From a virus (lineage: Duplodnaviria; Caudoviricetes): a DNA stretch of 64,000 nucleotides. The stretch spans positions 524 to 64,523 of IMG/VR virus record IMGVR_UViG_3300010885_017808. One strand, written 5' to 3'. The notes under the pieces are model-generated. The model did no database searches and was not told the origin of the DNA. It saw only the letters and a list, made by a program, of their open reading frames with translations. Position numbers and translations under genes: made by a program. Below are positions 29,527-44,750 of the stretch, in pieces (position 1 is the first letter of the stretch; each line of letters opens with the position of its first letter).

Positions 29527-29829
29527 TTAGGCTGCAACGGTTTCGGCCGCGGCTTGTGTGCGTGTAGCAGCGGGGCCTGCTGGGTTCTTCTTAGCCACAT
29601 AGGCAATCGCTGCCTCAACGGCTGGGTTGCCTTTACCGTAGCTGGTATCAACCAAGAACTGAGCGATCTCTGCCTTAGTCATCTCGTTGGGCAAGGGGAT
29701 CAAGTCCACGTCCTTGTGATCGTTCTTTGCAAGGATCTTGATACGCATTGTATCATTTGCAAAGCGAATCTTTGTCTTACCGTTCAGTGTCGAAACACCT
29801 GCTACTGCGAATTTTTTTGCTGTCGTCAT
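29527..29829 (-). CDS. hypothetical protein
   Basis: KIRFAND motif; AAGGT SD. Confidence 0.6.
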   Translation of the reverse strand: MTTAKKFAVAGVSTLNGKTKIRFANDTMRIKILAKNDHKDVDLIPLPNEMTKAEIAQFLVDTSYGKGNPAVEAAIAYVAKKNPAGPAATRTQAAAETVAA

Positions 29830-30086
29830 AATAATTACCTTTGTGTGTGTTGTCTGCCAAAAGCGGCATTGTTACTATATTAACTTCTATCCAATCCAAT
29901 TGTCAACCATTTAATTAACCATTTTAACATTTATTGTCACGCTCTCCTTTTCATCTAATGCCGCGATGAACTCGTCGTCGAATACAAGATCCTGCATACT
30001 GAGATCGATCATGGATTCAACCTTGGCCAAGTCAGCATCGCCCTGCCCGGCACATTCGATAGTGAATGAGAATGTAATAGTCCTAG

Positions 30087-30716
30087 TCATTCTGTTACCA
30101 ACCCTAGTTTCTCTTTACCATCCTTGATCCACTCTGTGAGATCCTCAGTGTCTGCGTTCTCTGCTTCGTATTCAGCCATTGACTCTGAGATGCAGAACAG
30201 TTCGTCTAGTTCTGCGGGCAGGGTATCGGCTACCTCAACGGAATTCATCTCGCTATACTCATAGCAGTCATCACAGCCGTCTTCGTAGAGTCCTGCGTAG
30301 CACATGCCTGGTTCGTAGTAGCCTGCCTTAACCCCAAAGCCCAAGTCCATGAGTTTCTCGTAGGCTGCGATAGGTGGAGCCCACGCAGTATCGAAGCCCG
30401 TAGTCAGCATCTTGCCGTCCGGGTGGATGTCACTGTTGCCCGCTTCGCCTGTGTCCCACTTAGTGCCCCACTCGCCTACGCAGTAGTCATACCAGTTGCC
30501 GTAGCCATACTTCTTGACGTTGGCTTTAGTCTGTGCTTCTAACTTCTTCTGTTCGTCCGGATCACCCATGTGTCCACTGACGGTGTCTTTGAGTTCCTCA
30601 GGAACTGGAATGAACTCTTGCAGGAACTCTCCACGCTCCAGGGCATCGTATGCTCGCTGGATCATCGCTGGATCTTCGTGCGTGAGTGTAAGATGATTGT
30701 TGCACCAATTAGGCAT
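30087..30716 (-). CDS. MPNWC/YubB ferredoxin-like family protein
   Basis: MPNWCNN, WGTKWD, FDTAWAPP, YYEPG. Confidence 0.75.
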   Translation of the reverse strand: MPNWCNNHLTLTHEDPAMIQRAYDALERGEFLQEFIPVPEELKDTVSGHMGDPDEQKKLEAQTKANVKKYGYGNWYDYCVGEWGTKWDTGEAGNSDIHPDGKMLTTGFDTAWAPPIAAYEKLMDLGFGVKAGYYEPGMCYAGLYEDGCDDCYEYSEMNSVEVADTLPAELDELFCISESMAEYEAENADTEDLTEWIKDGKEKLGLVTE

Positions 30717-30940
30717 TTGTGTTCCTTTCTAGTTCTATTGCCAACTCAATGTCAGAGGCCGCTTGTGCAGTCAGCTGACTGATAACCTTTAGAATCTTTA
30801 CTTGATCCTTCATGCTTGTCTCGCTGGTTAGTGCGATAACAGAGCGTTGTAGATATGCAATTACTTCTGGTGTCATCACTGCTCCTTTGTGTTAAACTAT
30901 GCGTCTAGTATAACACCAAACGCATAGTCTGTCAACCAAA

Positions 30941-31276
30941 TTACAGTTCTACACTATCCCAACTGCCTACAGTTGCTTTCTTGATAGTTCCCTTCAGGGC
31001 ATCCTGTACCAGCTGAATCGCTTGCTTGTTCTTGCCACCGATGTGCCATTGATACTGTCCCATGGGAGTCTCGTACTCTTTCCAGTCATAGACAGTTGCT
31101 ACTGTGCCGTCTTCGCCTACGATGATCCACTCCTGTGTAGTCTTGTCACCGCCGCCCAAGCCTTCGCCGAATGTGGCAACCAGCGTTGCGTAATCAGTTG
31201 TGATGTAACCTTGCAGGCTAGTCATGTTGGCTGCTGAGAAGTCGTCTGCTACTGTGTAAGTTGCGTTGCGTTTCAT
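30941..31276 (-). CDS. early hypothetical protein
   Basis: TSLQG..ATVYDWK..WHIGG. Confidence 0.65.
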   Translation of the reverse strand: MKRNATYTVADDFSAANMTSLQGYITTDYATLVATFGEGLGGGDKTTQEWIIVGEDGTVATVYDWKEYETPMGQYQWHIGGKNKQAIQLVQDALKGTIKKATVGSWDSVEL

Positions 31277-31391
31277 AGTTGCTCCTATTGCGTTGTTGAT
31301 GTGTCTATTATACAACCAAAATGCCAAACTGTCAACCTACGAAGTGCCCAGGCGTGTTGCAGGGCCTAGTGGTAGGCTGACAGCTGACAAA

Positions 31392-31778
31392 TTAATCTAT
31401 CCAGCTTTCTACCATTAACACGGGCTTCTTAAGCACACGCTTAACGAAGTCTTCTGGGGTATCGTCGGTGCGTACTAGCACAAAGCCCATGCTCTCTACC
31501 AAGTCTGTCTCGCACACTTGCAGGTCTAGTCCTGCGGCTTCAAATGCAATGTTCATCTTAGTAAGCGCATACTTGACACCGGCTTCAAATGCCATATACT
31601 CGCTGTCGGCAGTGTCTTCAAAGTCAAACTCTGTTTCCATAATGTTCACATAGTCTTGACCGTCTGCTACAATGAACTTGCCGATCTTCTTCCAGTTGCT
31701 CTGCTTCTCACTGTCAAAGTGGTCACAGGCTTCGTTGAGGTCGAAGCTGGAGAAACTGTTATAATTTACTTTAGCCAT
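31392..31778 (-). CDS. early hypothetical protein
   Basis: Promoter plus GGGAG SD. Confidence 0.65.
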   Translation of the reverse strand: MAKVNYNSFSSFDLNEACDHFDSEKQSNWKKIGKFIVADGQDYVNIMETEFDFEDTADSEYMAFEAGVKYALTKMNIAFEAAGLDLQVCETDLVESMGFVLVRTDDTPEDFVKRVLKKPVLMVESWID

Positions 31779-31834
31779 GTTGCGCTCCCTGTTGTGTTAC
31801 TATGTATCTATTATACAACCAAACTACAGTTGTG

Positions 31835-32065
31835 TCAACCAATTACTACCACTCGGCGGATCTTTTCGTTGTCCTCTTCGTCGTAGTCGACTTCGACGAG
31901 CTTGTCCATACGATGGTATTCACTGTAGCGTACAGTTCCCTCGAAGACTTCGCTAATCTTAGGGGCAACCTGTGTGCGCCAGTGATCGCCGTAGCCGTAG
32001 CTAAAGTGAACATCCGAATCCTGGTTCTCACCCTCTAACATTGCTATAAGTGCTGCGACTTTCAT
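31835..32065 (-). CDS. early hypothetical protein
   Basis: YGYGDHWRTQVAP; SD. Confidence 0.6.
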   Translation of the reverse strand: MKVAALIAMLEGENQDSDVHFSYGYGDHWRTQVAPKISEVFEGTVRYSEYHRMDKLVEVDYDEEDNEKIRRVVVIG

Positions 32066-32145
32066 CTTGTGCTCCTTTGTTGCTATGTGTTTATTATAGC
32101 ACAGCCTTGCCCAAAATGCAAGTGCTGTGCTAATAACCCTACAAG

Positions 32146-32547
32146 TTAGTCAACTTCTAGTTGCCCGTATTTTGCTTCCCATGCAGTAATAAAGTCCCCG
32201 TCTATGTCACAGCTAACATAGTTGTCCCCTTGCATGCCCTGCTCGCTGTACTCCGCAGTTGCAAGTCCCTGCGCAATTAAATATTCGTTTAGTTGCTGTT
32301 TAAACAAGCTGTCTGTGTATATAAGCCCGTCTTTGTTAACACGCCAGTCGTCTGTGTTAAAGTATATGCAAAGCTCGCCAAAATCTTTGTCCTCACTACA
32401 GTATGTTACCTGCATATCTGTAATGCGTACAGCAGTTGCTTTGTCGCTCCACAAACTATCGCCCGCAGTATTAAAAACAATTTTGCTGTCCCGTGTGTCG
32501 TTATCAGCATTGTCCCAATCCGTGTGCATGTCGTTTATAAGTTGCAT
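32146..32547 (-). CDS. early hypothetical protein
   Basis: GLIYTD..YSEQGMQGDNYVS. Confidence 0.65.
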   Translation of the reverse strand: MQLINDMHTDWDNADNDTRDSKIVFNTAGDSLWSDKATAVRITDMQVTYCSEDKDFGELCIYFNTDDWRVNKDGLIYTDSLFKQQLNEYLIAQGLATAEYSEQGMQGDNYVSCDIDGDFITAWEAKYGQLEVD

Positions 32548-32620
32548 AGTGTGCTCCGTTTTGTTTACAAAGTATGCGCTGTTTTGTTTAGCGCATGTAT
32601 GTATTATATGGCCACTTGTC

Positions 32621-32668
32621 CAAAATGTCAACCAAAATAAAAAAGACCCTAGTGTTAGTAGGGTCTTT
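32621..32668 (-). repeat. terminator-promoter cassette copy B
   Basis: 44/48 nt identical to 27628-27675. Confidence 0.8.
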
Positions 32669-32686
32669 CTTGGAGTCAGTCCGTTA

Positions 32687-33046
32687 TTAGAAGACTTTCA
32701 TCTTGCTGTAGCCAGTTGCCAACAGCGCCAGCGCATCTTCTGCTGTGCATGATACAGTGGCTACTCGCTTGCGGTCGATGCTGCCGTTCTGTGGGTAGTA
32801 ACGTCCACCGCCATTGCCATAGCCGCCTGGTGCGCCGCCAGCATTGAACTTCTGATTAGCGCCGACGATCCAACGGTTAAGGCGACCGCTTTTAGTTGGT
32901 ACACGAAGGCGGTCCGAAGTCTCAAGTTGATTCATCAACTTGCTAGTATGCTCTGTGGTATGACCGATGTGGTAAGCCACGTCTTCGGTAAAACAGAGTG
33001 GATTCTTTGCGACGAATTCGCAAATAGTTTGATTAGTGCTTTTCAT
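32687..33046 (-). CDS. possible winged-HTH protein
   Basis: Helix-turn-helix-like N-terminal half; SD. Confidence 0.45.
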   Translation of the reverse strand: MKSTNQTICEFVAKNPLCFTEDVAYHIGHTTEHTSKLMNQLETSDRLRVPTKSGRLNRWIVGANQKFNAGGAPGGYGNGGGRYYPQNGSIDRKRVATVSCTAEDALALLATGYSKMKVF

Positions 33047-33126
33047 AATATGAGCTCCTGTGTGTGTGTTACTGTATTGTTTACAGTGTGTTAATAATAA
33101 CTTCAAATCGCCGTTTTGTCAACCAA

Positions 33127-33540
33127 TTACTTGACCAGTGCGTAGGGTTTATTCCACGATCCCACATTCACGTCGATGTAGTAGGCAGTGTCAAAGTAGT
33201 CTGTCATCGCATCGCTGCGATCGTACCACTCAGTCCCTTTAGCTGCTGCAAAGAGTTCAATGAGGAAGTTCTTGCAGCTTCCGTCGAAGTGCTCGTGGAA
33301 CCAATAGGGGTTAATGTCGAGGTAGTCTTTGATTTCCCGTCGAAGTGCTCCCTGCTGCTGCATTCTATCTGAACCGACTCGGTTGCAGTTCTCGATGAAG
33401 TCCAGCTTGCCCTGCTTGATGTTAACAACCAGCGTTGAATGATTGCGTACGGCATAGCTGGCCTTGACGCCATACTTGTCGCAGACTGCTTTCATTGCGG
33501 GGACTAGCTTTGCCTTGCGTTCCTGATTCATCCATGCCAT
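33127..33540 (-). CDS. early hypothetical protein
   Basis: SDAMTDYFD..GSWNKPY. Confidence 0.7.
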   Translation of the reverse strand: MAWMNQERKAKLVPAMKAVCDKYGVKASYAVRNHSTLVVNIKQGKLDFIENCNRVGSDRMQQQGALRREIKDYLDINPYWFHEHFDGSCKNFLIELFAAAKGTEWYDRSDAMTDYFDTAYYIDVNVGSWNKPYALVK

Positions 33541-33591
33541 GATGCGCTCCTTGTTGTGATGTATTGATTATACTGCCAATTGCCCAAAATG

Positions 33592-33819
33592 TCAACCGGA
33601 TTGAGTGTTGCAAAATTGCCACATCTTTAACTCAGCGCCTTCCAGTCCCAAGAGCACTCCCTCGAAGTCTCTGTAGGTGCAGCAGGCATGGGCTCTGGGC
33701 CAACTCATATGCCCTTCAGCTACAGCCTTGTGATAGCGTGTTACAGAGGCCTTGGCGGGCCCGGCCTTCTTGTAGTATTTTACAAAGTTGCCGCGATCGT
33801 CGTAGACTACCCAGCCCAT
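33592..33819 (-). CDS. early hypothetical protein
   Basis: Follows upstream ORF. Confidence 0.5.
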   Translation of the reverse strand: MGWVVYDDRGNFVKYYKKAGPAKASVTRYHKAVAEGHMSWPRAHACCTYRDFEGVLLGLEGAELKMWQFCNTQSG

Positions 33820-33820
33820 A

Positions 33821-34132
33821 TCACCACGCTATCTCTTTTGAAGCGAAGCGGATCACGCCTTCGTAGTCCAACTGACTCTGCTCGAACTCTGTAAGAGCGT
33901 TGTCAGCAACAATGGACCAATCGATGATGTGCTCGCGGAAGGCTTGATTGTCCTGCTCAATTTGGCTGCGAACACCCATCACGGTCTCTGTTGCCTTGTT
34001 GGGGTTAACCTTCTTGACCACATAGTCTGAACCGCCCTTGGCTTTCCAGTACTGGGGGCACTCACCAACTCCGTCCCAATCGTGGGCTCCGTAGTTCTCA
34101 TAAACCTGTGTAGTGATTAAGAGTTTTGCCAT
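33821..34132 (-). CDS. early hypothetical protein
   Basis: ENYGAHDWDG..WKAKGG. Confidence 0.65.
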   Translation of the reverse strand: MAKLLITTQVYENYGAHDWDGVGECPQYWKAKGGSDYVVKKVNPNKATETVMGVRSQIEQDNQAFREHIIDWSIVADNALTEFEQSQLDYEGVIRFASKEIAW

Positions 34133-34176
34133 TTTGTGTTCTCCAGTGTGTTGCTGTCTATGTGTTTATTATACCA

Positions 34177-34380
34177 TCACCTAGCCAAAATGTCAACCAA
34201 TTTCTGATTCAATTGGTCCATCTCACTCTGCTCCACGTAGAAGTCTGTGGTGGGATCCCAGTAGCTGCCCTCCTTGGGATCATAGTAGAGGACACGGTTC
34301 ACAAACCAGAAAGGACCTTCGAGCCCCTTGCGGGGCTCCCACTTGGCATCGCGTGTTCCAAGTACTTTAAATCCCATCAC
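34177..34380 (-). CDS. early hypothetical protein
   Basis: GLEGPF..YYDPKEG.YWDPTTD. Confidence 0.6.
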   Translation of the reverse strand: MMGFKVLGTRDAKWEPRKGLEGPFWFVNRVLYYDPKEGSYWDPTTDFYVEQSEMDQLNQKLVDILAR

Positions 34381-34640
34381 ATGCTCCAGTAAGCTTCGGA
34401 ACTTGGGGAGCAGTAACGCGGAGTGTCATAGCGTTCCTGATACTCCTTGCCGCCCATCATGTTATTGCGTGTTACCATTGTCTCGTGTATCTCAACGCGA
34501 TAGCCTTTGCTAGCTGGATACTTGACAGCGTAGACCTCTACGATAGCACTACGATCTGCTGTGCTGTGGTCTACTTTGCGGTCCAAACGCTCGCCGGACT
34601 TTTGACGTGCATCTTTTTTGTAAAGTTCTACGGTGTACAT
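34377..34640 (-). CDS. early hypothetical protein
   Basis: TPRYCSPSSEAYWSM. Confidence 0.6.
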   Translation of the reverse strand: MYTVELYKKDARQKSGERLDRKVDHSTADRSAIVEVYAVKYPASKGYRVEIHETMVTRNNMMGGKEYQERYDTPRYCSPSSEAYWSM

Positions 34641-34699
34641 AAGTTTCGCTCCTTGTGTGTTTGTGTAAGTCTTAATTATACTGCCAGCTGTCCAATCTG

Positions 34700-34900
34700 T
34701 CAACCCCACTGGCAATCACGTTCACGATCGCAAACCAATTCCCAATACTCTTTAAGATTCGCTTTAGCACGGGCAACATCCCCGCCTACTTCGTCCAGGA
34801 TCTCTTGATAATCTGCAACATCGTAGCACTCGAATACCCAATGACCACCCGCTTCGTAATTCGCTGCGGCGTAATCTGATAATTCTTTGATAGCTGTCAT
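34700..34900 (-). CDS. early hypothetical protein
   Basis: Promoter plus SD. Confidence 0.6.
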   Translation of the reverse strand: MTAIKELSDYAAANYEAGGHWVFECYDVADYQEILDEVGGDVARAKANLKEYWELVCDRERDCQWG

Positions 34901-34973
34901 CTGCTTGTCCTATTGCGTTGTTGATGTATCTATTATATGTCCAATCCGGCAGGCTGTCAACCAAAAAGATTTG

Positions 34974-35002
34974 TTGACATTTTGGATAGATGGCAGTATA
35001 AT
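34974..35002 (+). promoter_or_regulatory. counter-oriented consensus promoter
   Basis: TTGACA-N17-TATAAT on + strand, back-to-back with minus promoter 34932-34960. Confidence 0.8.
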
Positions 35003-35007
35003 CTAGT

Positions 35008-35101
35008 CATAGGTTCGAACTACTACGTAGGGGGTGGACATGGAGAGCCACCGTGTTGACCTCGCGGTGAAGAAGGTAAAAAAAGGACCCCGAAGGGTCC
35101 T
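35008..35101 (+). ncRNA. candidate small RNA
   Basis: Downstream of + promoter; hairpins GGTGG/CCACC and CACCG/CGGTG; ends at GGACCC-CGAA-GGGTCC. Confidence 0.35.
35077..35101 (-). terminator. intrinsic terminator with cUUCGg tetraloop
   Basis: Minus strand AGGACCC-TTCG-GGGTCC-TTTTTTT. Confidence 0.85.
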
Positions 35102-35294
35102 AAAGTCTACCAGGAGAAATCTTATGAGTTCACAGTCTCGAACGGACTGAGTTCTTCACTGTCCGCAACACCCATGTCAGTGAGTGCAGCGAATACTAGT
35201 TCTATGTTACACTCAAGGATGCTGGCAATCATCTTTGCGCTATGTCCCTCGATGTAGAGTTCTTGAATGTCATATGATAGTTCTGCGAGTTTGC

Positions 35295-35519
35295 TCATGT
35301 TGTTTCCTTTTGTGTGTGTTGTTTAATCATTAAGTATAATGGATCTATAATCTCTACGTCTTCTAGTTCAAAGTCTCGTGTGGCCCAGTCCATCCACTCT
35401 TCGGAGAACACTTCCACTTCTCCGTTCATCAACATGGTTCGGGCCTGTTCCTCTGTCTCACATTCAACCACGTAGGTTTCAGCGACTATGGAATTACGCC
35501 AAAAGGTAAACTTCTTCAT
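35295..35519 (-). CDS. early hypothetical protein
   Basis: Coupled ORF. Confidence 0.55.
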   Translation of the reverse strand: MKKFTFWRNSIVAETYVVECETEEQARTMLMNGEVEVFSEEWMDWATRDFELEDVEIIDPLYLMIKQHTQKETT

Positions 35520-35716
35520 CAGTCAATCCAGCAGTCACTGGCCTGTTGTACAGTTGTTTCCTGCCTACCAATGTAGCCGCCTTCGAAGCCATCAGGCCCT
35601 GCACGTAGGAACAAGCGATCACCTTCTATCTTGTAGATGACTCCGCCCTGCTCCACATCGCACTTGAAGCCCACGTAGTCACCTACCTTAACAGTCTTGC
35701 CTTCAACAGTTGTCAT
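35519..35716 (-). CDS. small SH3/KOW-like protein
   Basis: VKVGDYVGFK. Confidence 0.5.
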   Translation of the reverse strand: MTTVEGKTVKVGDYVGFKCDVEQGGVIYKIEGDRLFLRAGPDGFEGGYIGRQETTVQQASDCWID

Positions 35717-36080
35717 TTAGCCAACTCCTGTGACTGTTGCTTGACAGTGTCAACGCCCTTGTCTAGCATACGAGCAATGCCCTGGAAGCCTACAGTTGCT
35801 AAGATAAGTCCGAAGACTGCCCCAAGAATAAAGTTTCTCATACTTCTTCTCCTTCGTAGTTGTAAACGGGTTTGGGATCGTTGCGATGTTTCCAGCGATA
35901 GTACAAGGCCTGCGGGATGCCTAGCTTGAAGGCCCACATAACGTCCATTACTATCATACCTACTGCGAATGCTAAGATAAGTTCCATGTCAGCTCCTTTG
36001 TGTGTGTATGCGTGTATTATATGCTCGCTATGCGGAATTGTCAACCACTTTAGCAGCGGGGCCTATAGCCCCATACTACT

Positions 36081-37289
36081 TTATGCCGCGTCCTTTTCGT
36101 AGATCACAGTCTGTCCAAAGGGTGCTTCGGCTTCTGTGTTACCTTTAACAATAAAGACTGTATCAACTTGATCGTCAGGTCCCCAACTACCGCAGGGGAA
36201 GCCATCTGTGAACATAATGAACTTCTTAGCCTCGATGCCCTGCTCAAGCATATAGGTAAAGTTAATATCGAAGTCTGTACCACCACCACCCTGTGGCTCA
36301 TACTCTTCTAGTTCGTGACTGTTGTCTTGTGTGATCTTAACATAGTTATAGATGTCAGTATCGAAGCACCACAAGTGAATACTGAAGTCTTCGTATTGAT
36401 CCATAATGCCTTTGACTTCGCTAAGGAATACAGTAGCATCTTCTACTCCGATACTGCCACTCATGTCAATTGCAATAGCCACGTCAATAGTTGTGTCCTG
36501 ACGCATCCCTGGAAGGATTGCACCTGAGTGCATTGACTTACGGTTAGGACGAGTAAAGGAATAGTCGTTGCGGATAATGCTTTGGATCTCTTGACGGATC
36601 AACTGGCGCCAGCTAATCTTAGGCTCAGTCATGTCCTTGATCAAACGCTGGATACCTGCGGGCACTTTGCCAGCGCCAGCGGCACTTGCACTCTGGATCA
36701 TTGCTTCTTTGATCTCATCGCGGATCTGTTGTGCTTCTTCCTTAGTCATGCCGGGTATGCCTTTACCCTTGCCTTCTTTGTCGCTTTCTTTGCCCGGGCC
36801 TGTGCCGTCTTCGTTAATGTGCTCGTCGAGCAGTTCGCCTAATTGCTTGAGCAAGTCTGGCATGGAGATCTTTTCTGCTTTCTCGTAGAGCTCATCATAG
36901 ATCTCTTCCCAAGCCATGCCGCGATACTTTTGATCGTAGCAGATCTTAACTTCAGTAATCTTCTCACCAATGCGTTCGTCTACAAGGATCTGATTGACAG
37001 CGTAGTCTTGTGCGATGTTTGACAACTGGCGATCACGTGATCCAACTCGCCCGAAGTGATCAAAGACGCAATGACAAATCTCGTGTCCAAACAAGAACTC
37101 TAGTTTCTTAACACTGAGCTTCTCAATGAACTTCTTGTTATAGTAGAAGTTGCGACCGTTAGTAGCCGCTGTTGGGCACCATTCGCTAGCGTCAATCAAC
37201 AGCATACGAGTTGCCATGTTACCGAAGAAGGGTGCTTTGAGTAGTAAGCCTACTCGGGCTGTTGTTAGTTTCTCTACGATGGGATCCAT
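36081..37289 (-). CDS. HEXXH metallopeptidase-like + VWA domain protein (DUF2201-type)
   Basis: TAATNG, HEICH, MIDAS DMSGS, GGGTDF, FTDG. Confidence 0.85.
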   Translation of the reverse strand: MDPIVEKLTTARVGLLLKAPFFGNMATRMLLIDASEWCPTAATNGRNFYYNKKFIEKLSVKKLEFLFGHEICHCVFDHFGRVGSRDRQLSNIAQDYAVNQILVDERIGEKITEVKICYDQKYRGMAWEEIYDELYEKAEKISMPDLLKQLGELLDEHINEDGTGPGKESDKEGKGKGIPGMTKEEAQQIRDEIKEAMIQSASAAGAGKVPAGIQRLIKDMTEPKISWRQLIRQEIQSIIRNDYSFTRPNRKSMHSGAILPGMRQDTTIDVAIAIDMSGSIGVEDATVFLSEVKGIMDQYEDFSIHLWCFDTDIYNYVKITQDNSHELEEYEPQGGGGTDFDINFTYMLEQGIEAKKFIMFTDGFPCGSWGPDDQVDTVFIVKGNTEAEAPFGQTVIYEKDAA

Positions 37290-37379: not shown

Positions 37380-37397
37380 CCAGCAATGGGCGAGGTC

Positions 37398-38483: not shown

Positions 38484-38559
38484 TTAAGACCTCGCTTTAA
38501 GAAAATTAAAATTACTGTGTTTCTCAGTGTTTAAAGTATAACGCCGAACTGTGATCCTG

Positions 38560-39300
38560 TCAACCTATTTTCTTCACATAATGAAATTGCGTTGTCTTGT
38601 CATCTCGGTGTGCTTTAATCTTAGCCTTGATGCGATAGCTGGCATCCTTGTTCATGTTAGTGCCAAACCAGAAGTCTACAATAGACTCGCCCATCCTTGC
38701 TGTGATACGATACTTCTCGTATTGCTGCGAGTAGCGGCTGTCCATGACTGTGATGTCACCGATGACTGTTTCTCCCACGTTGCCTGCCAGCTGCTCGCTA
38801 GCAAAGACTTCCCGTTTGATCTCTTGACGCTGCGAGTCTCGACGGGCTATACTAGGCAAGCAGCTTACGATAGCAAACTCTAACAGGTTGCGTCCTGTAA
38901 AGGATTCTGTGCAGGCAACCTTGTATGCCTGCTGCTGGAAGTCATTGAGTCCACCAGCCATGGCTAACATGGTATAGCCTGTGAAGTGTCTGCGGTATGC
39001 TGCACCATTAACACGATCAGCATCAGTGACAATGCTGAAGTCGTTGGTACGAAGATGTTCACGAACAACTGCCTTGTTGGCAGTCTTGTCCAAGCCGGCG
39101 TCTGTGTAGACGTTCTCTTTGAAGTAGCCACCATTGAGACGATCCACTGCTGTTGCCAATGCCCAGACATCGTCTGCTGCGAATTGCTGCTGTTGTGGGA
39201 TTTTATATGCAGGCTTACTGGCTTCTTCACAGTCGTCTGCATGCCCAAGGCGCCGAATAGCATTTGGGCTCCAACCTGTTACATCTACAAATCCTGACAT
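38560..39300 (-). CDS. hypothetical protein, C-terminal OB-fold-like
   Basis: AAGGAG SD and promoter. Confidence 0.65.
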   Translation of the reverse strand: MSGFVDVTGWSPNAIRRLGHADDCEEASKPAYKIPQQQQFAADDVWALATAVDRLNGGYFKENVYTDAGLDKTANKAVVREHLRTNDFSIVTDADRVNGAAYRRHFTGYTMLAMAGGLNDFQQQAYKVACTESFTGRNLLEFAIVSCLPSIARRDSQRQEIKREVFASEQLAGNVGETVIGDITVMDSRYSQQYEKYRITARMGESIVDFWFGTNMNKDASYRIKAKIKAHRDDKTTQFHYVKKIG

Positions 39301-39436
39301 AGTTCGCTCCTTGCGTTTAACAATAGCTCTATTATATAGTCTCGTTCCTGATGTGTCAACCAAAAAGAAAGGACCCCTAAGGATCCTTCCTCAAACCCGC
39401 CCCGGGAGCGAATCGGTATAGGTTTGAAACTTGCTA

Positions 39437-39709
39437 TTAAAGCGTGATGCCCATAGCCTGTGCTTTGTAACCCAAAGCAACAATCTTACGTGATGGCTTG
39501 CCCATTTCGTATTCAGTAACCACAACACCGTTGCCGGCTGTACGTGACTTGCTGTAGACTGCATAACCATTCTGACGAATGCGTGATGCCTCAGCGGACA
39601 AGTTCTTAACACCGAAACGCTTTGCGGCGTCTGATGCTGTCAACTTCTCACCGTTGTACAATGCGGTGAATACCTTGAATGTTTTAGTGTCTTTAGAGAT
39701 AAATTTCAT
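39437..39709 (-). CDS. winged-HTH DNA-binding protein
   Basis: LTASDAAKRFGVKNLSAEASRIRQNGY. Confidence 0.7.
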   Translation of the reverse strand: MKFISKDTKTFKVFTALYNGEKLTASDAAKRFGVKNLSAEASRIRQNGYAVYSKSRTAGNGVVVTEYEMGKPSRKIVALGYKAQAMGITL

Positions 39710-39802
39710 TTTAGTTTCCTTTGTTGGGCTGATAATAAGTTGTTCAGCGTGTTACTAGTATAGCAGGGTGATCATTATTAATCAACCCCGCATTTTACCA
39801 AT

Positions 39803-39994
39803 TTACTTCTTGTAGCTTACCGAACCCTTAAGGAATGCACCTAACAGCACAACCGAGGCCCAGGTCTCAAGGGTTAATGGGATAGCCAATACGGGGAACA
39901 AGGTGTTCAATGCCCAAATGGTTAGTATGGGCCCAATGGCAACCAAAAACACAATCAATGCAATAATCAGTACCAATTTAATAACATCACTCAT
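39803..39994 (-). CDS. small membrane protein
   Basis: IWALNTLFP; hydrophobic. Confidence 0.6.
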   Translation of the reverse strand: MSDVIKLVLIIALIVFLVAIGPILTIWALNTLFPVLAIPLTLETWASVVLLGAFLKGSVSYKK

Positions 39995-40235
39995 TTTCTA
40001 ACTCCTGTATGTCTCGCTGACGTTCTAGTTCAGCAATCTCGGCATCAATTTCTTTAGCCTTACGTTTACCAGCTACCGCAGTCCCTTTGTTATAGACTTG
40101 CCAGTAGTGCTCACCACAGTATGCCTTCTTATTAAGAGTTTTGCAACCACACATCTTAATGGGCCAGTTTCGCCAAGGGTCTTGATCAGCGCCAATGAAT
40201 TGACAGCTATCAAACAGCATAGTATCTGCTGACAT
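39987..40235 (-). CDS. small Cys/His zinc-binding protein (GcrA C-terminus-like)
   Basis: CQFIG..MCG..YCGEH. Confidence 0.55.
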   Translation of the reverse strand: MSADTMLFDSCQFIGADQDPWRNWPIKMCGCKTLNKKAYCGEHYWQVYNKGTAVAGKRKAKEIDAEIAELERQRDIQELENE

Positions 40236-40236
40236 A

Positions 40237-41301
40237 TTAAGCCCTTCGCATCACTGTAACTTCTGCCATGTCTTTCCACTGCACTGGGAAGCTCTTACGC
40301 AAGTCCGCAATCTTAAGAACTGTACGCAGGCTCAACTCTCGCAGACGCTCACGGTTAGTGTCCATGAACTCGATGATCTCATCTTTGGCGATGGGTTCGA
40401 ATTCGTAGCTGTCCAGCATGCCATCTGCTGTGATCTGTTTGATACGCAGAACCTTCTCACGGTCCGTGTCCATCTGCAGATCAATATAGTGACAGCGTGA
40501 CTCTAGTGCCGCCAAGTGATCCTGTAGCTTCTTACTGCGAACATTCTCGAACTTGATGTTGGTAATAAAGATAGCACCACCTTTGAACTCAAACTTGTCT
40601 GGGATGCCTTCTGAGCGCAGGAGTCTGCTGTCAGTGTTCCAGCTGATAGTGCGCTTCTTGCTACTATCTAATGCCGCTTTGAGAATGTTCAGTGACACAT
40701 CGTCTAGCAGTACACTATCGCAGTCATCAAACACCACAACACTCTTGCTGTCGCTGAACTTGTATAGCTTGGCATACAAGCCCAATGCTGACATAGCACC
40801 CTTGACTACTTCATAGCGTGGCTTACGCTCGCCTAGTGTATTAAACAAGTCGTCACGTGTTAGTACTTCCTCAACACCAAAGCTCTTGCCTACGCCTGGG
40901 GGTCCGCTGACAATCATAGCACGTACATCACCAGACTTAACAGCCTTGGTCATGTCAGTGAGGATTTGGAAGCGAGCCCTAGTCTTCTCGATGAGCTCTT
41001 CGTCTGTATACTGTGATACTACAGCGTCTGCTACTTTGATCTGTTCCAAGCTCTTGTCTGTGACAGTAGACTGGGGCATGTTGCCGCTGACTACCACATA
41101 GCTTTCAGGGCTAGCGCATTTGATGCGAATGTTGCGTTCCGGGACGCCGTTGTTAGCAGGCTGACAGGTGCCGCCGTCTACAACCACATAGCCCGAGTCC
41201 GGACGGTATGCTTCTACAAGCATGAAACGGTAGCCTGCAAGACTAGTGTCTTTGCCGCGAATCTTGTAAGTACCTTCTCTAACTTCAATTAATGCTGTCA
41301 T
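40237..41301 (-). CDS. P-loop AAA-type ATPase
   Basis: GPPGVGKS, VFDDCD, FITN, LESR. Confidence 0.8.
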   Translation of the reverse strand: MTALIEVREGTYKIRGKDTSLAGYRFMLVEAYRPDSGYVVVDGGTCQPANNGVPERNIRIKCASPESYVVVSGNMPQSTVTDKSLEQIKVADAVVSQYTDEELIEKTRARFQILTDMTKAVKSGDVRAMIVSGPPGVGKSFGVEEVLTRDDLFNTLGERKPRYEVVKGAMSALGLYAKLYKFSDSKSVVVFDDCDSVLLDDVSLNILKAALDSSKKRTISWNTDSRLLRSEGIPDKFEFKGGAIFITNIKFENVRSKKLQDHLAALESRCHYIDLQMDTDREKVLRIKQITADGMLDSYEFEPIAKDEIIEFMDTNRERLRELSLRTVLKIADLRKSFPVQWKDMAEVTVMRRA

Positions 41302-41369
41302 TTCTCGCTCTCCAAAGTTGTTTAACTAAGCCTCTATTGTATGACAAATCCCAGGACCTGTCAACCTCT

Positions 41370-41828
41370 TTATGCATCTTCTTCTTCCAAATGGCTAATA
41401 CGAAGTTCTTCCGCAATGGCATCTGAAAGCAAGATGTAGTCTTCACCATTCATGCAGACATACCACAGTCCATCGCTGCGAAGAATGTATTCAAATTCCT
41501 CGTACTGGGGATTAGCACGGTAGTCATTGAAGTTGGTAAACATGAGATAACCGCTGTCCTCTTCGCCACGATCACGTCCGTAGAAGGTGGTCCACTTGCT
41601 GCGAGCATCTGTATCATCGAACCTCTCATTGAAGTCGTGCTGCTCTCCTGTGGTCTCACGTAGGCTGCTGATGCTGCCCTGTGTGATTAACTCTTCTGCT
41701 ACTATGGGATCCGTATAGTGAGCCAGCAAGAGCTTGCCGTTGTTAGCTAGATACCCGTCCCAGTGGCAGTAGACCTGCTTGATGACACCGTCGTCTAGTT
41801 CTATTGAGATAGTGCTACGTGTTGCCAT
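41370..41828 (-). CDS. conserved phage early protein (YCHWDGY)
   Basis: MATRS..YCHWDGY..YGRDRGE. Confidence 0.7.
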   Translation of the reverse strand: MATRSTISIELDDGVIKQVYCHWDGYLANNGKLLLAHYTDPIVAEELITQGSISSLRETTGEQHDFNERFDDTDARSKWTTFYGRDRGEEDSGYLMFTNFNDYRANPQYEEFEYILRSDGLWYVCMNGEDYILLSDAIAEELRISHLEEEDA

Positions 41829-41865
41829 TTGCGCTCCTGTGTGTTACTATGACTAGAGTATACGC

Positions 41866-42243
41866 TCAAGCATAGAGATTGTCAACAGCATTTTCATCTA
41901 GATCAGCAAATCGTTTCTTCATGTCTGCTGCTGTGGCCTGTGCCTGCTGCAGAGCCTGGTAGATGATGTCTTCTGCTGTACCGTCTAGCATGACTTCGCG
42001 AGCATCTGCATACAAGCAACCGCCCAAGTACTCTGCAGCCAGCTCTACGTCCTGAAACAGTACACGTACCCTAAGCATGAACCACTCCAGCTTGCCGCTG
42101 TCGATGTCCTCGCAGAGCTGCTGTATATCAGTCACTGAGTCGTCAAAGCAATCACGTGGATGCATGTCTTCCCAGCTACGATCCACAATGACTGTGAACG
42201 GACCGCGTTGTGTGTCAGCAATTGTTTCGTAGTGTCGTTGCAT
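41866..42243 (-). CDS. early hypothetical protein
   Basis: EYLGGCLY. Confidence 0.6.
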   Translation of the reverse strand: MQRHYETIADTQRGPFTVIVDRSWEDMHPRDCFDDSVTDIQQLCEDIDSGKLEWFMLRVRVLFQDVELAAEYLGGCLYADAREVMLDGTAEDIIYQALQQAQATAADMKKRFADLDENAVDNLYA

Positions 42244-42251
42244 ATTAATCC

Positions 42252-42512
42252 TTAGATCTCTGAGAACTCAATTTTGGGATCCAGGCTGCGCAATTGATTC
42301 GCTACAGTGACTAGTTCTTTATAGCGTCTACGGGTCTCTGCAATAGGCAGCTCACCGTCGCAACTTAAGTTCTCTGGACTCAGTGCAGAGTCAATGATGT
42401 CAGCTAGCCTAGCACGATCAACGTAGAGTGTCATGTCTAGTGGCTTGGCTGTCTTGTCAAAGCATAGATCCCAACGATGTTTACGATCTATGTATGCCTG
42501 CAATGCTTTCAT
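42252..42512 (-). CDS. early hypothetical protein
   Basis: LSPENLSCDGE. Confidence 0.65.
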   Translation of the reverse strand: MKALQAYIDRKHRWDLCFDKTAKPLDMTLYVDRARLADIIDSALSPENLSCDGELPIAETRRRYKELVTVANQLRSLDPKIEFSEI

Positions 42513-42580
42513 GTTCGCTCCTTAGTGTGTGTAAGCCTAGAGTATACATGAAAAGGGGGTCTGTGTCAACCCCTAGTGGA

Positions 42581-42814
42581 TTAAAAGATCCAGCCGCCGA
42601 AGTTCTCGTAGTCGTAGACTGCTACTGGAACACCTTCTTTTAGATAGACAATAATGCCCCCAAGATCGTGACTGATACAGGCCTGCAGCACCTGCTCATG
42701 ATCTTTCTCGAACTTATCGGTGTATTCAACAACGCTGCTGTCGTCGTCGCCTGCTGCTGCACTGTAGTCCACAGTCTTGGGCATGGTGTTGATTATGCTG
42801 ATGTCATAGCTCAT
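42581..42814 (-). CDS. early hypothetical protein
   Basis: Promoter plus SD. Confidence 0.6.
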   Translation of the reverse strand: MSYDISIINTMPKTVDYSAAAGDDDSSVVEYTDKFEKDHEQVLQACISHDLGGIIVYLKEGVPVAVYDYENFGGWIF

Positions 42815-42870
42815 TGTGTTGTCCTCTCGGTGTGTCTAAGTCACTAGTATACGATCATCTATCCAAAATG

Positions 42871-43164
42871 TCAAGCGAATTCGTGTTCGTCAGCAATGAT
42901 CTGCAGCATGTTAGCGGGAACTCTCCACATGCCGTGAGCAGTGTTCACAGTCACGTACTTGACGGCAATCTTTGTGACTACCCCCGTAACGTTGCGTCCC
43001 AGCTTGGCGCTGTCAAAGTTGACATTGCTGCCTATACGTAGCTGCTGCTTGGCCTGTCTAGTCAGCTGCGCTCGATTCCACTTGATAGCTTCTATCACAG
43101 TATTCAGTTCCGCGTTCGTGAACTCGCCCTGCATGATAGCTGCGTTGATTTGCTTGATGTTCAT
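42871..43164 (-). CDS. small SH3-like protein
   Basis: GVVTKI..WRVPANML. Confidence 0.6.
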   Translation of the reverse strand: MNIKQINAAIMQGEFTNAELNTVIEAIKWNRAQLTRQAKQQLRIGSNVNFDSAKLGRNVTGVVTKIAVKYVTVNTAHGMWRVPANMLQIIADEHEFA

Positions 43165-43245
43165 AATGGCTCCTGTGTGTAAGTATGCATTGATTATATA
43201 TGGAAACTGCTGCTGTGTCAACTAGTACTTGCAGCATCTAACTAG

Positions 43246-43322
43246 TGGCCTGCCCTGAGGGATTCGAACCCCCGACCGACGCCTTAGAAGGGCGTTGCTC
43301 TATCCAACTGAGCTAAGGACAG
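43246..43322 (-). tRNA. tRNA-Arg(UCU)
   Basis: Cloverleaf, anticodon loop CTTCTAA, TTCGAA T-loop, encoded CCA. Confidence 0.93.
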
Positions 43323-43326
43323 ATTC

Positions 43327-43403
43327 TGGTGGGCCGTGAGTGATTCGAACACTCCACCAATGGATTATGAGTCCACTGCTCTAACCTAATGAGCTAACGG
43401 CCC
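43327..43403 (-). tRNA. tRNA with CAU anticodon, probably Ile2 (lysidine-type)
   Basis: ACTCATAAT anticodon arm, G1:C72 pair, encoded CCA. Confidence 0.85.
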
Positions 43404-43408
43404 TTGTA

Positions 43409-43496
43409 TGGTGCTCGAGCCCGGAATCGAACCGGGACGCCCTTTACGAGCGAGAGATTTTAAGTCTCTTGTGTCTACCTATTTCACCACTCGAGC
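43409..43496 (-). tRNA. tRNA-Leu(UAA)
   Basis: Long variable arm, loop CTTAAAA, encoded CCA. Confidence 0.93.
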
Positions 43497-43514
43497 CTAG
43501 CTGTAATTATACAG

Positions 43515-43799
43515 TCATTTATCGGTAGTGTCAAGTCCCATGTCTTCTGCAATGTCATCTTGCAGCTTCTTGCTCAGCACCATCTTATATAGAGGTTCCA
43601 TCTCACGAGCGAACACGTCCGGGCTACGTGCTGCACAGCGATCTAGATCATATGTACTAGGGAAGTGTCGAAGAATGCTCATAGCTTCTCGTCTCACAGC
43701 AGCACCCACTCTAGGATACTTCTTGCGATCCGTGGCTAGTTCGCGGAGGAACTGTTCAGCGTATTTCACACTGCGATATCTTTCATCTGGTAATGTCAT
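43515..43799 (-). CDS. conserved phage protein (MTLPDERY..LRHFP)
   Basis: AGGAG SD and promoter. Confidence 0.7.
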   Translation of the reverse strand: MTLPDERYRSVKYAEQFLRELATDRKKYPRVGAAVRREAMSILRHFPSTYDLDRCAARSPDVFAREMEPLYKMVLSKKLQDDIAEDMGLDTTDK

Positions 43800-43889
43800 T
43801 GATTCTCTGCTCCTGGATAAGAGACGTTTCTTCTGCATGTATATATTATACAGCTAGAGCAAGTTGTAGTCAACCTGAAACACAGGGTC

Positions 43890-44750
43890 TAGCAGCGGGG
43901 CCTCTCTAGTGAACACACGAGTCTGTGGATGCAATAAGGGATCGGCCGCGAACAGTCTCGTTGTAGTAGAGTATGACTGTATAGTATAAGGTTTCTGATT
44001 ATCTTTATATAGTAATAGAATCCCGTCGGGAGTAGCTTGCATAAGAGTATTTACATAGTATATACGTATACGTATACAGTAACATAGTCATCGACACAGT
44101 ATACGTAACGCCTAGCAGCGGGGCCTATGTATAGATACTAGTATAAGCGTGTGACTTTCAGTGGCTCCGCAGTGGGAGAGCTGTCAAGAGGCAGTGGGAG
44201 AACTGTGGCTTATTGGCAACTATGGTAGAGTCACAGTCTGGCTGCTGTAGAACCACCATGATTTTATAGTGATAAATACTGGCGACGCCATCATCTCCAT
44301 GGTGAGAAACCCTGAAACCGCACCGTTCGGCCATATTTTGATACCGTTCTAATAGGGTTAGAGAATCTTTTGGCCGGTGGTTTGACTGGCTATGCTAGAA
44401 TGGTTGCACTTCTTTGCACTTTATTGCACTTCCCCACACAGATCCACCATAATTTCACCATAAATCCACGGCCACCCCCACTATATCTACGTATACACAC
44501 AGTCACGGCCATCATGCGCAGCGGGGCCTAGTACTTGAACCTACTCTACTTCAGCGTTTTTACAGCTCCCTTACTGTGGTCAACGCAAGGAAGAAGCTTG
44601 CGCTTCCTCTTAGACTATTATGTCTACGTATACGTTAATGTTATCACTACATGTATTCATAGTGTGTACGTTACTATACGTATATACATTATCTATGTTA
44701 CTACTAGTGTTGTTGTACTTGTAGTCAATACACTCGCAGCGGGGCCACTA
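43890..44750. repeat. non-coding iteron region at strand switch (candidate origin/terminus)
   Basis: GCAGCGGGGCC x4, TTGCACTT x3 at 10-bp period, GCAGTGGGAGA x2, TATACG repeats. Confidence 0.7.

What the first reader, a model, noticed from the sequence alone, without database searches (positions are those of the whole stretch)
29565..44746. Strand-polarised GCAGCGGGGCC motif, symmetrically placed at the strand switch
Seen: the exact 11-mer GCAGCGGGGCC occurs at 29567, 36053, 43892, 44115, 44518 and 44736, with a 1-mismatch copy at 28442. All are on the + strand and I saw none on the minus. Four copies extend to TAGCAGCGGGGCCT. The four clustered copies are spaced 223/403/218 bp, almost symmetric about ~44320, and one copy sits inside a coding sequence. 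Chance expectation for a given 11-mer in 64 kb is far below 1. Inference: a directional DNA signal (Chi/KOPS-like, initiator or terminase binding, or an ejection-pause signal) that I do not recognise as described.
Basis: partly seen in the sequence, partly recalled or inferred. Interest (0 to 1): 0.8.

Follow-up and report, generated by a model that had tools for sequence, protein, structure and literature searches.

The report
Conserved one-way motif, jumbo-phage early region
A strictly conserved 11-letter DNA word marks, always in the same direction, the control region and a few gene junctions of the early genes of a family of uncultivated freshwater giant phages; it is real and undescribed, but what reads it is still unknown.

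Summary
GCAGCGGGGCC occurs 6 times exactly and once with one mismatch, all on the + strand (chance 0.27).

The Chi/KOPS reading does not hold. The window is a 64.5-kb fragment of a freshwater jumbo phage. All copies lie in its early-gene block, which is on the minus strand and packed with consensus sigma70 promoters. Read on the sense strand the word is GGCCCCGCTGC, refined to GRCCCCGCTGY.

In 80 related loci (1.17 Mb) there are 188 exact copies on the gene strand and 0 on the other. In five records of 147-353 kb there are 4-7 copies each, and 24 of 25 lie within 8-14 kb of the early region.

Positions are syntenic. There is a 3-4-copy cluster in a non-coding region ahead of the first early promoter (28 of 30 loci). 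One copy sits just after a DUF2201/VWA gene (67 of 68).

It is not a fixed-distance promoter element, not a terminator, and not consistently a hairpin. Most clusters have no consensus promoter upstream, which favours recognition on DNA.

Best guess (0.35): a directional protein-binding site, stoperator-like or boundary-like, perhaps read by the conserved early winged-helix protein. Rivals are an RNA signal, a strand-specific nick or entry site, and an origin accessory. I found no paper on it.

The parts
44736..44746 (-). Copy G, the first copy in the direction of early transcription. It reads GGCCCCGCTGC on the minus strand. It lies 23 nt from a TAAATA (44770-44775) and 33 nt from the ATG (44780) of the divergent + strand gene.
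44518..44528 (-). Copy F. In the early direction it is followed by an R/Y tract and then iterons of about 10-11-nt period (GTGGA/GTGCA type, about 44403-44480) and a conserved block.
44115..44125 (-). Copy E. It is followed by TATACGTATAC-type palindromes.
43892..43902 (-). Copy D, the last of the cluster. It lies 18 nt upstream of the -35 of the first strong early promoter.
43845..43873 (-). First early promoter, TTGACT-N17-TATAAT (11 of 12). It drives the BPSL0761-family gene and then the tRNA genes.
43839..44779 (.). Non-coding control region at the strand switch. It holds copies D-G, iterons and palindromes.
43515..43799 (-). First early gene, a BPSL0761-family protein (94 aa; NF041728, 63.1 bits against a cut-off of 35). 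It is found in 24 of 24 relatives.
36053..36063 (-). Copy C. It lies 17 nt after the stop of the DUF2201/VWA gene and forms the 3' arm of a GGGGC-TATA-GCCCC mini-hairpin. It is 8 nt upstream of the -35 of promoter 36016-36044. This is the orthologous site found in 67 of 68 relatives.
36081..37289 (-). DUF2201_N + DUF2201 (VWA-like) gene, paired with the MoxR-like ATPase gene at 37398-38483. It was the anchor used to fetch relatives.
29567..29577 (-). Copy B. It lies inside the last 17 codons of ORF 29527-29829 (-), read as GPAA. The same arrangement is seen in relative L010.
28442..28452 (-). Copy A, with one mismatch (GGCACCGCTGC). It lies 9 nt after the stop of ORF 28462-28668 and 8 nt upstream of the -35 of promoter 28405-28433.
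39437..39709 (-). Winged-helix protein (HTH_39, 90 aa), a conserved early gene found in 24 of 24 relatives. It is the candidate reader of the motif. This is inference only.

Best explanation
GRCCCCGCTGY is a sequence-specific, orientation-locked recognition site on duplex DNA. It belongs to the early region, transcribed by host RNA polymerase, of a family of freshwater jumbo phages. Three or four copies, 140-490 bp apart, punctuate the non-coding control region that lies upstream of the first strong early promoter. Single copies sit at a few fixed intergenic junctions further down: after the DUF2201 gene, and before two or three particular promoters. I propose that a conserved phage early protein binds each copy as a monomer. 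The only recognisable DNA binder among the core early genes is the 90-aa winged-helix protein at 39437-39709. Because the site is asymmetric, I further propose that it acts directionally on transcription as a boundary or operator element. It would delimit and tune early transcription units, much as the asymmetric 'stoperator' sites of cluster A mycobacteriophages act on RNA polymerase. Shown here: existence, strict conservation, strand lock, restriction to the early region, syntenic placement, intergenic preference, and lack of a fixed promoter geometry. Inferred: that a protein reads it, which protein, and the effect on transcription.
For:: there are 188 exact and 50 one-mismatch copies on the gene strand against 0 and 2 on the other. 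There is no excess at two mismatches (62 against 62). Variation is limited to G2>A (19), C11>T (25) and C8>T/G (5), with 1 at position 1. The specificity is therefore sharp and asymmetric; in an alignment of 31 distinct cluster regions, the motif copies are the conserved islands in otherwise diverged non-coding DNA; placement is syntenic. A cluster of at least 3 copies occurs in 28 of 30 loci with 10 kb of upstream flank. The post-gene copy occurs in 67 of 68 loci; 124 of 173 distinct instances lie outside any same-strand ORF of 50 aa or more, and 89 have a strong sigma70 promoter within 50 nt downstream; of 65 distinct clusters, 49 have no strong same-strand promoter within 600 nt upstream of the first copy. 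58 have none between copies. 44 have one within 80 nt after the last copy. Most of the array is therefore upstream of the first consensus promoter, which fits a DNA site better than an RNA signal; the first copy abuts the start of the divergent gene; the winged-helix gene is present in 24 of 24 relatives, and 101 distinct sequences are 60-88% identical with near-invariant helix-3 and wing residues; the model (pLDDT 82) has a winged-helix fold; stoperators show that asymmetric, transcription-oriented 13-mers read by a monomer exist in phages.
Against: No binding was tested, and the link to the winged-helix protein rests only on co-conservation within one phage family, which is confounded by descent. 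The distance from motif to -35 varies (6 to 50 nt). There is no fixed spacing to a -10 element, so a classical activator geometry is absent. Only 3 of about 27 early promoters in the window carry the motif. The first cluster copies have no obvious transcription to block. A distant relative (L178) whose winged-helix homologue is only 41% identical over 56 aa keeps the identical motif. Near-invariance of 8-9 positions is more typical of nucleases than of transcription factors. Weak promoters upstream of the cluster cannot be excluded (one search lists a 10-of-12 site at 44864-44893 on the minus strand).
Confidence: 0.35

Rival explanations
1. It is an RNA-level signal. The motif acts in early transcripts as GGCCCCGCUGC, for example as a processing, stability, pausing or antitermination element in 3' UTRs and in a long leader RNA.
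For: The motif is always on the sense strand of the early genes (188 against 0). It sits 0-40 nt after stop codons at many sites. At the DUF2201 site of relatives it directly follows a hairpin (GTGGC/GCCAC) that keeps pairing through changes on both sides in 2-3 of 48 sequences. The window's own copy is the 3' arm of a GGGGC-TATA-GCCCC hairpin. Upstream sequence is slightly more structured than shuffles (-5.10 against -3.90 kcal/mol, 354 instances). In several relatives a true terminator follows the motif, so there it lies inside the 3' UTR.
Against: 49 of 65 clusters have no strong same-strand promoter within 600 nt upstream, and the first copy abuts the divergent gene. The motif is paired with upstream sequence only a little more than in shuffles (0.39 against 0.33). 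Flanks differ between site classes. Rfam gives no family. The window holds no complementary 7-9-mer on the early sense (minus) strand. The two invariant partner segments that RNAalifold pairs cannot show covariation.
Confidence: 0.2
2. It is a strand-specific nick or entry site for DNA metabolism. A phage nuclease or loader would recognise the word on one strand, as at the localized nicks of T5, phiKMV-like phages and tf. The breaks or loaded factors would serve replication start, DNA ejection or packaging, or clamp loading.
For: All copies are on one strand, there are few per genome, the recognition word is long and nearly invariant, and positions are conserved among relatives. These are the features reported for tf, phiKMV and T5 nick sites (passages read in PMC3517423). 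In phiKMV-like phages the nicks lie in the non-coding strand. The cluster brackets iterons, and strict DnaA-box-like words (TTWTNCACA) on the opposite strand are about 8 times denser there than in the rest of the loci (0.61 against 0.076 per kb per strand).
Against: Known nick sites are spread along the whole genome. Here 24 of 25 copies lie within 8-14 kb of 147-353-kb records, and they strongly prefer intergenic junctions. Four nicks within 0.85 kb on one strand would be odd. No physical evidence exists, because only assembled contigs could be laid. Only 2 of 73 clusters have two or more strict DnaA-box words. Contig ends of relatives fall at varied places in the cluster, not at one fixed nucleotide.
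Confidence: 0.2
3. It is an accessory site of a replication origin or a partition-like array. An initiator or centromere-binding protein would bind the direct repeats that flank the iterons, and the downstream copies would be secondary sites.
For: The cluster lies in a conserved non-coding, iteron-bearing region at a divergent junction. A more distant contig (L175) carries six copies matching GRCCCCGCTGY in a tandem array of about 46-nt units, plus one degenerate copy. Arrays of that kind are typical of protein-binding repeats.
Against: The 140-490-bp spacing is far wider than known iteron or centromere arrays. The most strongly conserved single site (67 of 68) is 7-8 kb away, after a gene. 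There is no GC-skew extremum at 44.3 kb.
Confidence: 0.1
4. It is a recombination boundary. The invariant word would be a crossover point that lets small early-gene modules be exchanged between related phages.
For: The modules between copies are hypervariable while the word is invariant. Some modules hold small variable ORFs. Many metagenome contigs break in this region.
Against: The joints actually seen between related genomes in the DNA runs lie at the repeated early promoters, for example 28411 to 31330, not at the motif (tables 5 and 5c). Module order and number are largely conserved. Eleven bases is short for homologous exchange.
Confidence: 0.05
5. It is a genome-wide polar word (Chi-like or KOPS-like) read by a host translocase or nuclease.
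For: The strand bias is strict. The invariant core is 8-9 nt. The + strand form contains AGCGG, which I recall as the Bacillus subtilis Chi sequence; this was not checked here.
Against: There are only 4-7 copies per 147-353-kb record, confined to one region. Placement is syntenic and intergenic.
Confidence: 0.02

Closest known systems
Stoperators / asymmetric operators of cluster A mycobacteriophages (L5 gp71, TipsytheTRex repressor); passages read in PMC9283540, PMC6550527 seen in the search listing only
   Same: Both are asymmetric words of 11-13 bp that are tightly conserved within a genome. Both lie in short intergenic spaces and next to promoters. In both, orientation is locked to the direction of transcription. 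Recognition by a monomer is shown there and plausible here.
   Different: Stoperators number more than 20 and are spread over the whole genome of a temperate phage. They are read by its immunity repressor, and some overlap promoters. Here there are 4-7 copies in one 8-14-kb early region of a large, apparently lytic phage. Most sit upstream of the first promoter, none overlaps a -35 or -10 element, and no repressor or integrase is known.
Localized single-strand nick sites of phages T5/BF23, phiKMV-like phages and tf (passages read in PMC3517423)
   Same: A strand-exclusive, long, nearly invariant word with few copies per genome, at positions conserved among relatives. Its function is enigmatic there too.
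   Different: Nick sites are spread along the genome (14 in the 46-kb phage tf) and are not tied to intergenic junctions. The sequences are unrelated (TACTRTGMC; CGACxxxxxCCTACTCCGG; RGCGCRGG). No nick has been shown here.
T4 MotA box of middle promoters (recalled, not retrieved)
   Same: An asymmetric box read by a monomeric phage protein upstream of a -10 element in a T4-like setting. The 3' end CTGCTA faintly resembles TGCTTtA.
   Different: The MotA box sits at a fixed 11-13 bp from the -10 element and replaces the -35. Here the spacing is not fixed, and full -35/-10 promoters follow at 6-50 nt.
PeSL (promoter-early stem-loop) cassettes of T4-type phages (recalled, not retrieved)
   Same: Repeated regulatory punctuation between small early genes in a plastic region. 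Promoter repeats act as recombination points, as in the joints seen.
   Different: PeSLs are the promoter plus a stem-loop themselves. This word is separate from the promoters, occurs at only a few of them, and is invariant across the family.

Membership tests
Chi / KOPS-type genome-wide polar words | Many copies spread over the whole replicon | tested here: not met
   There are 4-7 copies per 147-353-kb record, and 24 of 25 lie within 8-14 kb.
Chi / KOPS-type genome-wide polar words | Strand skew tied to replication direction | tested here: inconclusive
   All copies are on one strand, but also all in one co-transcribed block. There is no GC-skew extremum at the cluster.
Stoperator-type asymmetric repressor sites | Asymmetric conserved word of about 13 bp | tested here: met
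   GRCCCCGCTGY is non-palindromic. Counts are 188 exact and 50 one-mismatch copies against 0 and 2 on the other strand.
Stoperator-type asymmetric repressor sites | Orientation follows the direction of transcription | tested here: met
   The word is always on the sense strand of the early genes. Only one transcription direction was available, so a flip with gene direction could not be seen.
Stoperator-type asymmetric repressor sites | More than 20 sites across the genome, including operators that overlap promoters | tested here: not met
   There are 4-7 sites in one region. The sites lie 6-50 nt upstream of the -35 and do not overlap it.
Stoperator-type asymmetric repressor sites | Bound by a phage repressor that stops elongation | not testable with these tools
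Localized nick sites (T5, phiKMV, tf) | Consensus present on one strand only, at positions conserved in relatives | tested here: met
Localized nick sites (T5, phiKMV, tf) | Physical single-strand break in virion DNA at the site | not testable with these tools
   Only assembled contigs of public runs could be laid.
Intrinsic (Rho-independent) terminator | G+C-rich hairpin followed by a U tract | tested here: not met
   No T run follows the motif. In relatives a separate true terminator can follow it.
T4-type middle promoter (MotA box) | Box at a fixed 11-13 bp from a -10 element, no -35 | tested here: not met
   -10-like hexamers show no single preferred offset. TATA shows only small peaks at +11-14 and +20-25 among 241 instances.
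Known RNA families (Rfam 15) | Match to a curated covariance model | tested here: not met
   Only the three tRNAs match in 27000-46000.

The most novel reading that the evidence does not exclude
The word is a strand-specific entry or break site on the DNA of the end of the genome that acts first. It would be a programmed nick or loading point whose polarity tells a tracking machine which way to go. That machine could be a sliding clamp, a helicase, the ejection apparatus or a host exonuclease. The four-copy array next to the iterons would then be the phage's start site for replication, or a checkpoint for staged DNA entry. The downstream copies would be relay points. That would make it a new directional DNA signal of giant phages rather than a transcription-factor site.
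Probability: 0.12. Interest if true: 0.8.

Novelty: new variant of a known kind. Interest (0 to 1): 0.5.

Why it matters
Giant phages of lakes are known almost only from metagenomes, and nothing is known of how they organise the first minutes of infection. This 11-letter word stays invariant while the proteins around it diverge to 40-60% identity. It is always in one direction and sits at the same few places of the early region, so it is a handle on that control circuit. It can be tested in vitro without a cultured host, using gel shifts with the conserved early proteins and orientation-dependent reporter assays. If it proves to be a nick or entry site, it would extend the still unexplained localized nicks of T5, phiKMV and tf to giant phages. 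The motif is also a practical marker for finding the early region and the probable control or origin region in contigs of this family.

Tried and rejected
Promoter element at fixed distance: rejected. The distance from motif to -35 is 6-50 nt, and there is no single -10 offset.

Terminator: rejected. No T run follows the motif, and true terminators can follow it.

Obligate hairpin: rejected. Pairing with upstream sequence is 0.39 against 0.33 in shuffles. Only 11 of 354 instances have GGGG within 4-10 nt upstream, and 34 of 354 have a TGGC...GCCA-like stem.

Pairing between the tract after the motif and the CA-rich 5' UTR of the next gene (a read-through occlusion model): rejected. The real duplex energy, -7.28, is weaker than with other loci (-8.19) or shuffles (-7.77), over 82 pairs.

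Trans-acting antisense partner in the window: none. There is no 7-9-mer of the complement on the early sense (minus) strand.

tRNA-end mimicry: the three phage tRNAs do not contain the word.

sigma54-like reading of the conserved block after copy F: the GG of the -24 element is not conserved, judged by inspection.

DnaA boxes: strict words are 8-fold enriched, but only 24 occur in 73 clusters. I therefore make no claim of a DnaA-dependent origin.

BPSL0761-family first gene as binder: its model (pLDDT 87.6) is a helical bundle with no Foldseek match at E <= 0.001, the best being E = 2.6. That gives no support and no exclusion.

The winged-helix protein has no PDB sequence relative and only generic winged-helix fold matches at E >= 0.011.

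Search for more distant winged-helix loci: it returned only the same family (70-88% identity), so co-occurrence with the motif cannot be separated from descent.

Public runs: all four runs laid were assembled contigs. The one RNA run (X20) gave 61 small pieces. The pieces listed as identical to the window lie at 37122-37317, 41004-41194 and 42248-42398, and one near-identical piece (2 differing letters) lies at 39403-39730. No listed piece crosses a motif copy, and the bins 44118-45385 have no RNA cover.

Contig depths in X1 (about 9.5-14.6 in the early block, 8.0 for 43785-45250, 5.0 for 45240-45938) could hint at a two-fold covered terminal repeat. They are one figure per contig and are confounded by relatives and by G+C content, so I make no claim.

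Contig ends of relatives inside the cluster fall at varied distances from the copies, so they give no evidence for a fixed physical end.

Literature: a full-text search for the 11-mer, its complement and the 8-mer core found 666 papers holding at least one term. The 20 listed show no phage regulatory context in their titles or abstract starts, and I read none of them. Searches for BPSL0761 (1 unrelated paper) and for jumbo-phage, freshwater, early-promoter and motif terms (3 unrelated papers) gave nothing. Supplementary files were not consulted.

Earlier scan notes: nothing on look-alike DNA elsewhere.

Full report
OBSERVATION. The exact 11-mer GCAGCGGGGCC is at 29567, 36053, 43892, 44115, 44518 and 44736, and a one-mismatch copy is at 28442. 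All seven are on the + strand. Dinucleotide shuffles give 0.27 matches on average, and none of 100 reaches 7. The window is all but the first 523 bases of a 64,523-base contig, which holds no further copy on either strand. Four copies extend to TAGCAGCGGGGCCT, and the clustered copies are 223, 403 and 218 bp apart.

SETTING. G+C content is about 0.47-0.49 from about 26 to 44 kb (0.44 at 22-26 kb), against about 0.32-0.41 in the flanks. Between 27 and 44 kb the minus strand carries 25 sigma70-type promoters that match TTGACA-N16-18-TATAAT in 11 or 12 of 12 positions. The + strand carries two. In all, 61 promoter-like sites were found against 27.8 +/- 6.1 in shuffles. Over the whole window, 30 minus-strand sites have at most one mismatch, and 27 of them lie between 25854 and 43873. 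Small genes follow one another on the minus strand, and three tRNA genes lie at 43246-43496. This is the early, host-polymerase-transcribed block of a large lytic phage.

The window's other genes include helicases, a DNA ligase and sugar-modification enzymes. Megablast of window 26000-48000 finds no close relative among cultured phages. IMG/VR holds many relatives, and the public runs that hold the DNA are labelled freshwater or lake water. A search with the 402-aa DUF2201/VWA protein (36081-37289) confirmed 162 related stretches. The best 80 were kept; they are 76-87% identical and include contigs of up to 353 kb. One such record is rated 98% complete at 353 kb. The window is therefore a fragment of a freshwater jumbo-phage genome.

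THE MOTIF RE-READ. On the minus strand, the sense strand of the early genes, the word is GGCCCCGCTGC. The 80 related loci (1,168,091 bases) are oriented so that the DUF2201 gene is on +. In them the exact word occurs 188 times on the gene strand and never on the other. One-mismatch copies number 50 against 2, and two-mismatch copies 62 against 62, so the signal ends sharply. The tolerated changes are G2>A (19), C11>T (25) and C8>T or G (5), with 1 at position 1. This gives GRCCCCGCTGY with an invariant CCCCGCTG core. Flanks carry little information beyond A at -3 and A/T at -1.

Of the 62 of these that hold two or more copies, 61 have all copies on one strand.

DISTRIBUTION. In five records of 147-353 kb the pattern occurs 5, 7, 5, 4 and 4 times, while the reversed control pattern occurs 0 times. 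24 of the 25 copies lie within spans of 8.4-13.7 kb and are co-oriented. The one stray copy lies inside a 514-aa ORF. My arithmetic gives about 0.7 chance matches in 353 kb, so it may be chance. The word is therefore local to the early region, not genome-wide, and the Chi/KOPS idea fails.

SYNTENY. 28 of 30 loci with a full 10 kb upstream of the DUF2201 gene carry a cluster of at least three copies 5.5-10 kb upstream. The exceptions are L067 and L080. 67 of 68 loci that reach 2 kb past the gene start carry a copy 1150-2000 nt after it, that is, just behind the stop. The exception is L029. Some loci carry a further copy 5-8 kb on.

The window follows this plan. Copies G, F, E and D form the cluster. 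Copy C lies 17 nt behind the DUF2201 stop. Copies B and A lie about 6.5 and 7.6 kb downstream of copy C (7.7 and 8.8 kb from the gene start).

In an alignment of 31 distinct cluster regions, the copies and a block of iterons after copy F are the conserved islands in otherwise diverged DNA. Across 173 distinct instances, 124 lie outside any same-strand ORF of 50 aa or more. 89 have a strong promoter within 50 nt downstream.

TESTS OF MECHANISM.
- Promoter part: no. The distance to the -35 runs from 6 to 50 nt with several modes. Only 3 of about 27 early promoters in the window have the motif. -10-like hexamers have no preferred offset.
- Terminator: no. No T run follows, and in several relatives a proper terminator comes after the motif.
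- Structured RNA: weakly at best. At the DUF2201 site of relatives the motif follows a hairpin with a few compensatory changes, and in the window it forms a 5-bp hairpin. Over all instances, though, pairing exceeds shuffles only slightly. Rfam has nothing.
- A second feature is real. An alternating purine/pyrimidine tract of 10 nt or more lies within 30 nt downstream in 127 of 354 instances, against 43 of 354 upstream. The mean longest run is 8.8 against 5.4 in shuffles. A model in which this tract pairs with the CA-rich leader of the next gene failed.

DNA OR RNA. Of 65 distinct clusters, 49 have no strong same-strand promoter within 600 nt upstream of the first copy. 58 have none between copies. 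44 have one within 80 nt after the last copy. In the window the first copy lies 23 nt from a TAAATA and 33 nt from the ATG of the divergent gene. The reading of TAAATA as a T4-type late promoter is recalled and untested. So most of the array stands upstream of the first consensus early promoter. That favours recognition on duplex DNA, although weak promoters cannot be ruled out.

CANDIDATE READER. Six early genes are found in 24 of 24 relatives: a BPSL0761-family gene directly after the cluster, a 354-aa and a 267-aa protein, a MoxR-like ATPase, the DUF2201 protein, and a 90-aa HTH_39 winged-helix protein. The winged-helix protein is the only evident DNA binder. 101 distinct sequences are 60-88% identical, with near-invariant helix-3 and wing residues, and the model is a winged helix. 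In one divergent contig (L172) its gene lies next to the motif cluster. This is co-conservation within one lineage, not proof. A contig with a 41%-identical homologue keeps the identical word.

COMPARISON.
- Stoperators. In logic, the closest known things are the asymmetric 13-mer stoperators of cluster A mycobacteriophages. They lie in intergenic spaces, their orientation is tied to transcription, and a monomeric repressor reads them (PMC9283540, passages). The present motif differs in number, range, position relative to promoters and phage lifestyle, so it is not a member of that system.
- Nick sites. In statistics, the closest are the localized nick sites of T5, phiKMV-like phages and tf. 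These have a strand-exclusive consensus, few copies and conserved positions (PMC3517423, passages). Those sites are spread over the genome, however, and no nick could be tested here.

VERDICT. This is a real, strongly selected, directional cis-element of the early region of a jumbo-phage family, and I found no paper that describes it. Its function is not established. I put 0.35 on a directional protein-binding boundary or operator site, 0.2 on an RNA signal, 0.2 on a nick or entry site, 0.1 on an origin or partition accessory, and the rest on recombination or chance-free unknowns.

Noticed in passing
window 25854-43873, minus strand: About 27 near-perfect early promoters share an extended consensus (ttGG-TTGACA-ttttgg...-TATAAT-a.acacat). 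They are often preceded directly by a terminator hairpin and T run, and followed by CA-rich leaders before AGGAG.
   Followed up: partly
window 28411/31330, 31092/34661, 31313/39887 and others: Contigs of related genomes in three DNA runs join distant early promoters to one another, skipping 2.6-8.6 kb. The repeated promoters therefore look like the points where early-gene modules are exchanged or lost (tables 5 and 5c).
   Followed up: no
relatives, 20-120 nt after the DUF2201 gene (e.g. L001:8208-8278): A conserved element of about 50 nt, AGTGCC-N6-7-hairpin(GTGGC/GCCAC)-motif-R/Y tract. AGTGCC is invariant in 48 of 48 sequences, and the hairpin keeps pairing through double changes in 2-3 of them. 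The window has a shortened form, GGGGC-TATA-GCCCC.
   Followed up: partly
L175:8638-8920: A more distant contig carries six copies matching GRCCCCGCTGY, plus one degenerate copy, in a tandem array of about 46-nt units. Each copy is followed by a CA-rich tract.
   Followed up: no
window 44403-44480 and the same place in relatives: Iterons of about 10-11-nt period follow copy F. Strict DnaA-box-like words (TTWTNCACA) on the opposite strand are about 8 times denser in the clusters than in the rest of the loci, but they are few (24 in 73 clusters).
   Followed up: partly
window 43515-43799 (-): The first early gene encodes a BPSL0761-family protein (NF041728). It is a confident helical model (pLDDT 87.6) with no Foldseek match in the PDB at E <= 0.001 (best E = 2.6), and its function is unknown. 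The N-terminus MTLPDERYR is nearly invariant (8 of its 9 residues invariant) across the 34 aligned sequences.
   Followed up: partly
window 22000-48000 against the flanks: G+C content steps up from about 0.32-0.41 to about 0.47-0.49 across the early block, which is unusual within one phage genome.
   Followed up: no
window 43785-45938: In the best DNA holder, identical contigs have mean word depths of 9.5-14.6 in the early block, 8.0 across the cluster and 5.0 beyond it. This might reflect a terminal repeat, but it cannot be judged from contig depths.
   Followed up: no
window 44046-44107 and 44619-44705: TATACGTATAC-type palindromes flank the core of the non-coding region on both sides, with inverted-repeat arms up to 31 nt. 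They may be operators of a dimeric regulator.
   Followed up: no
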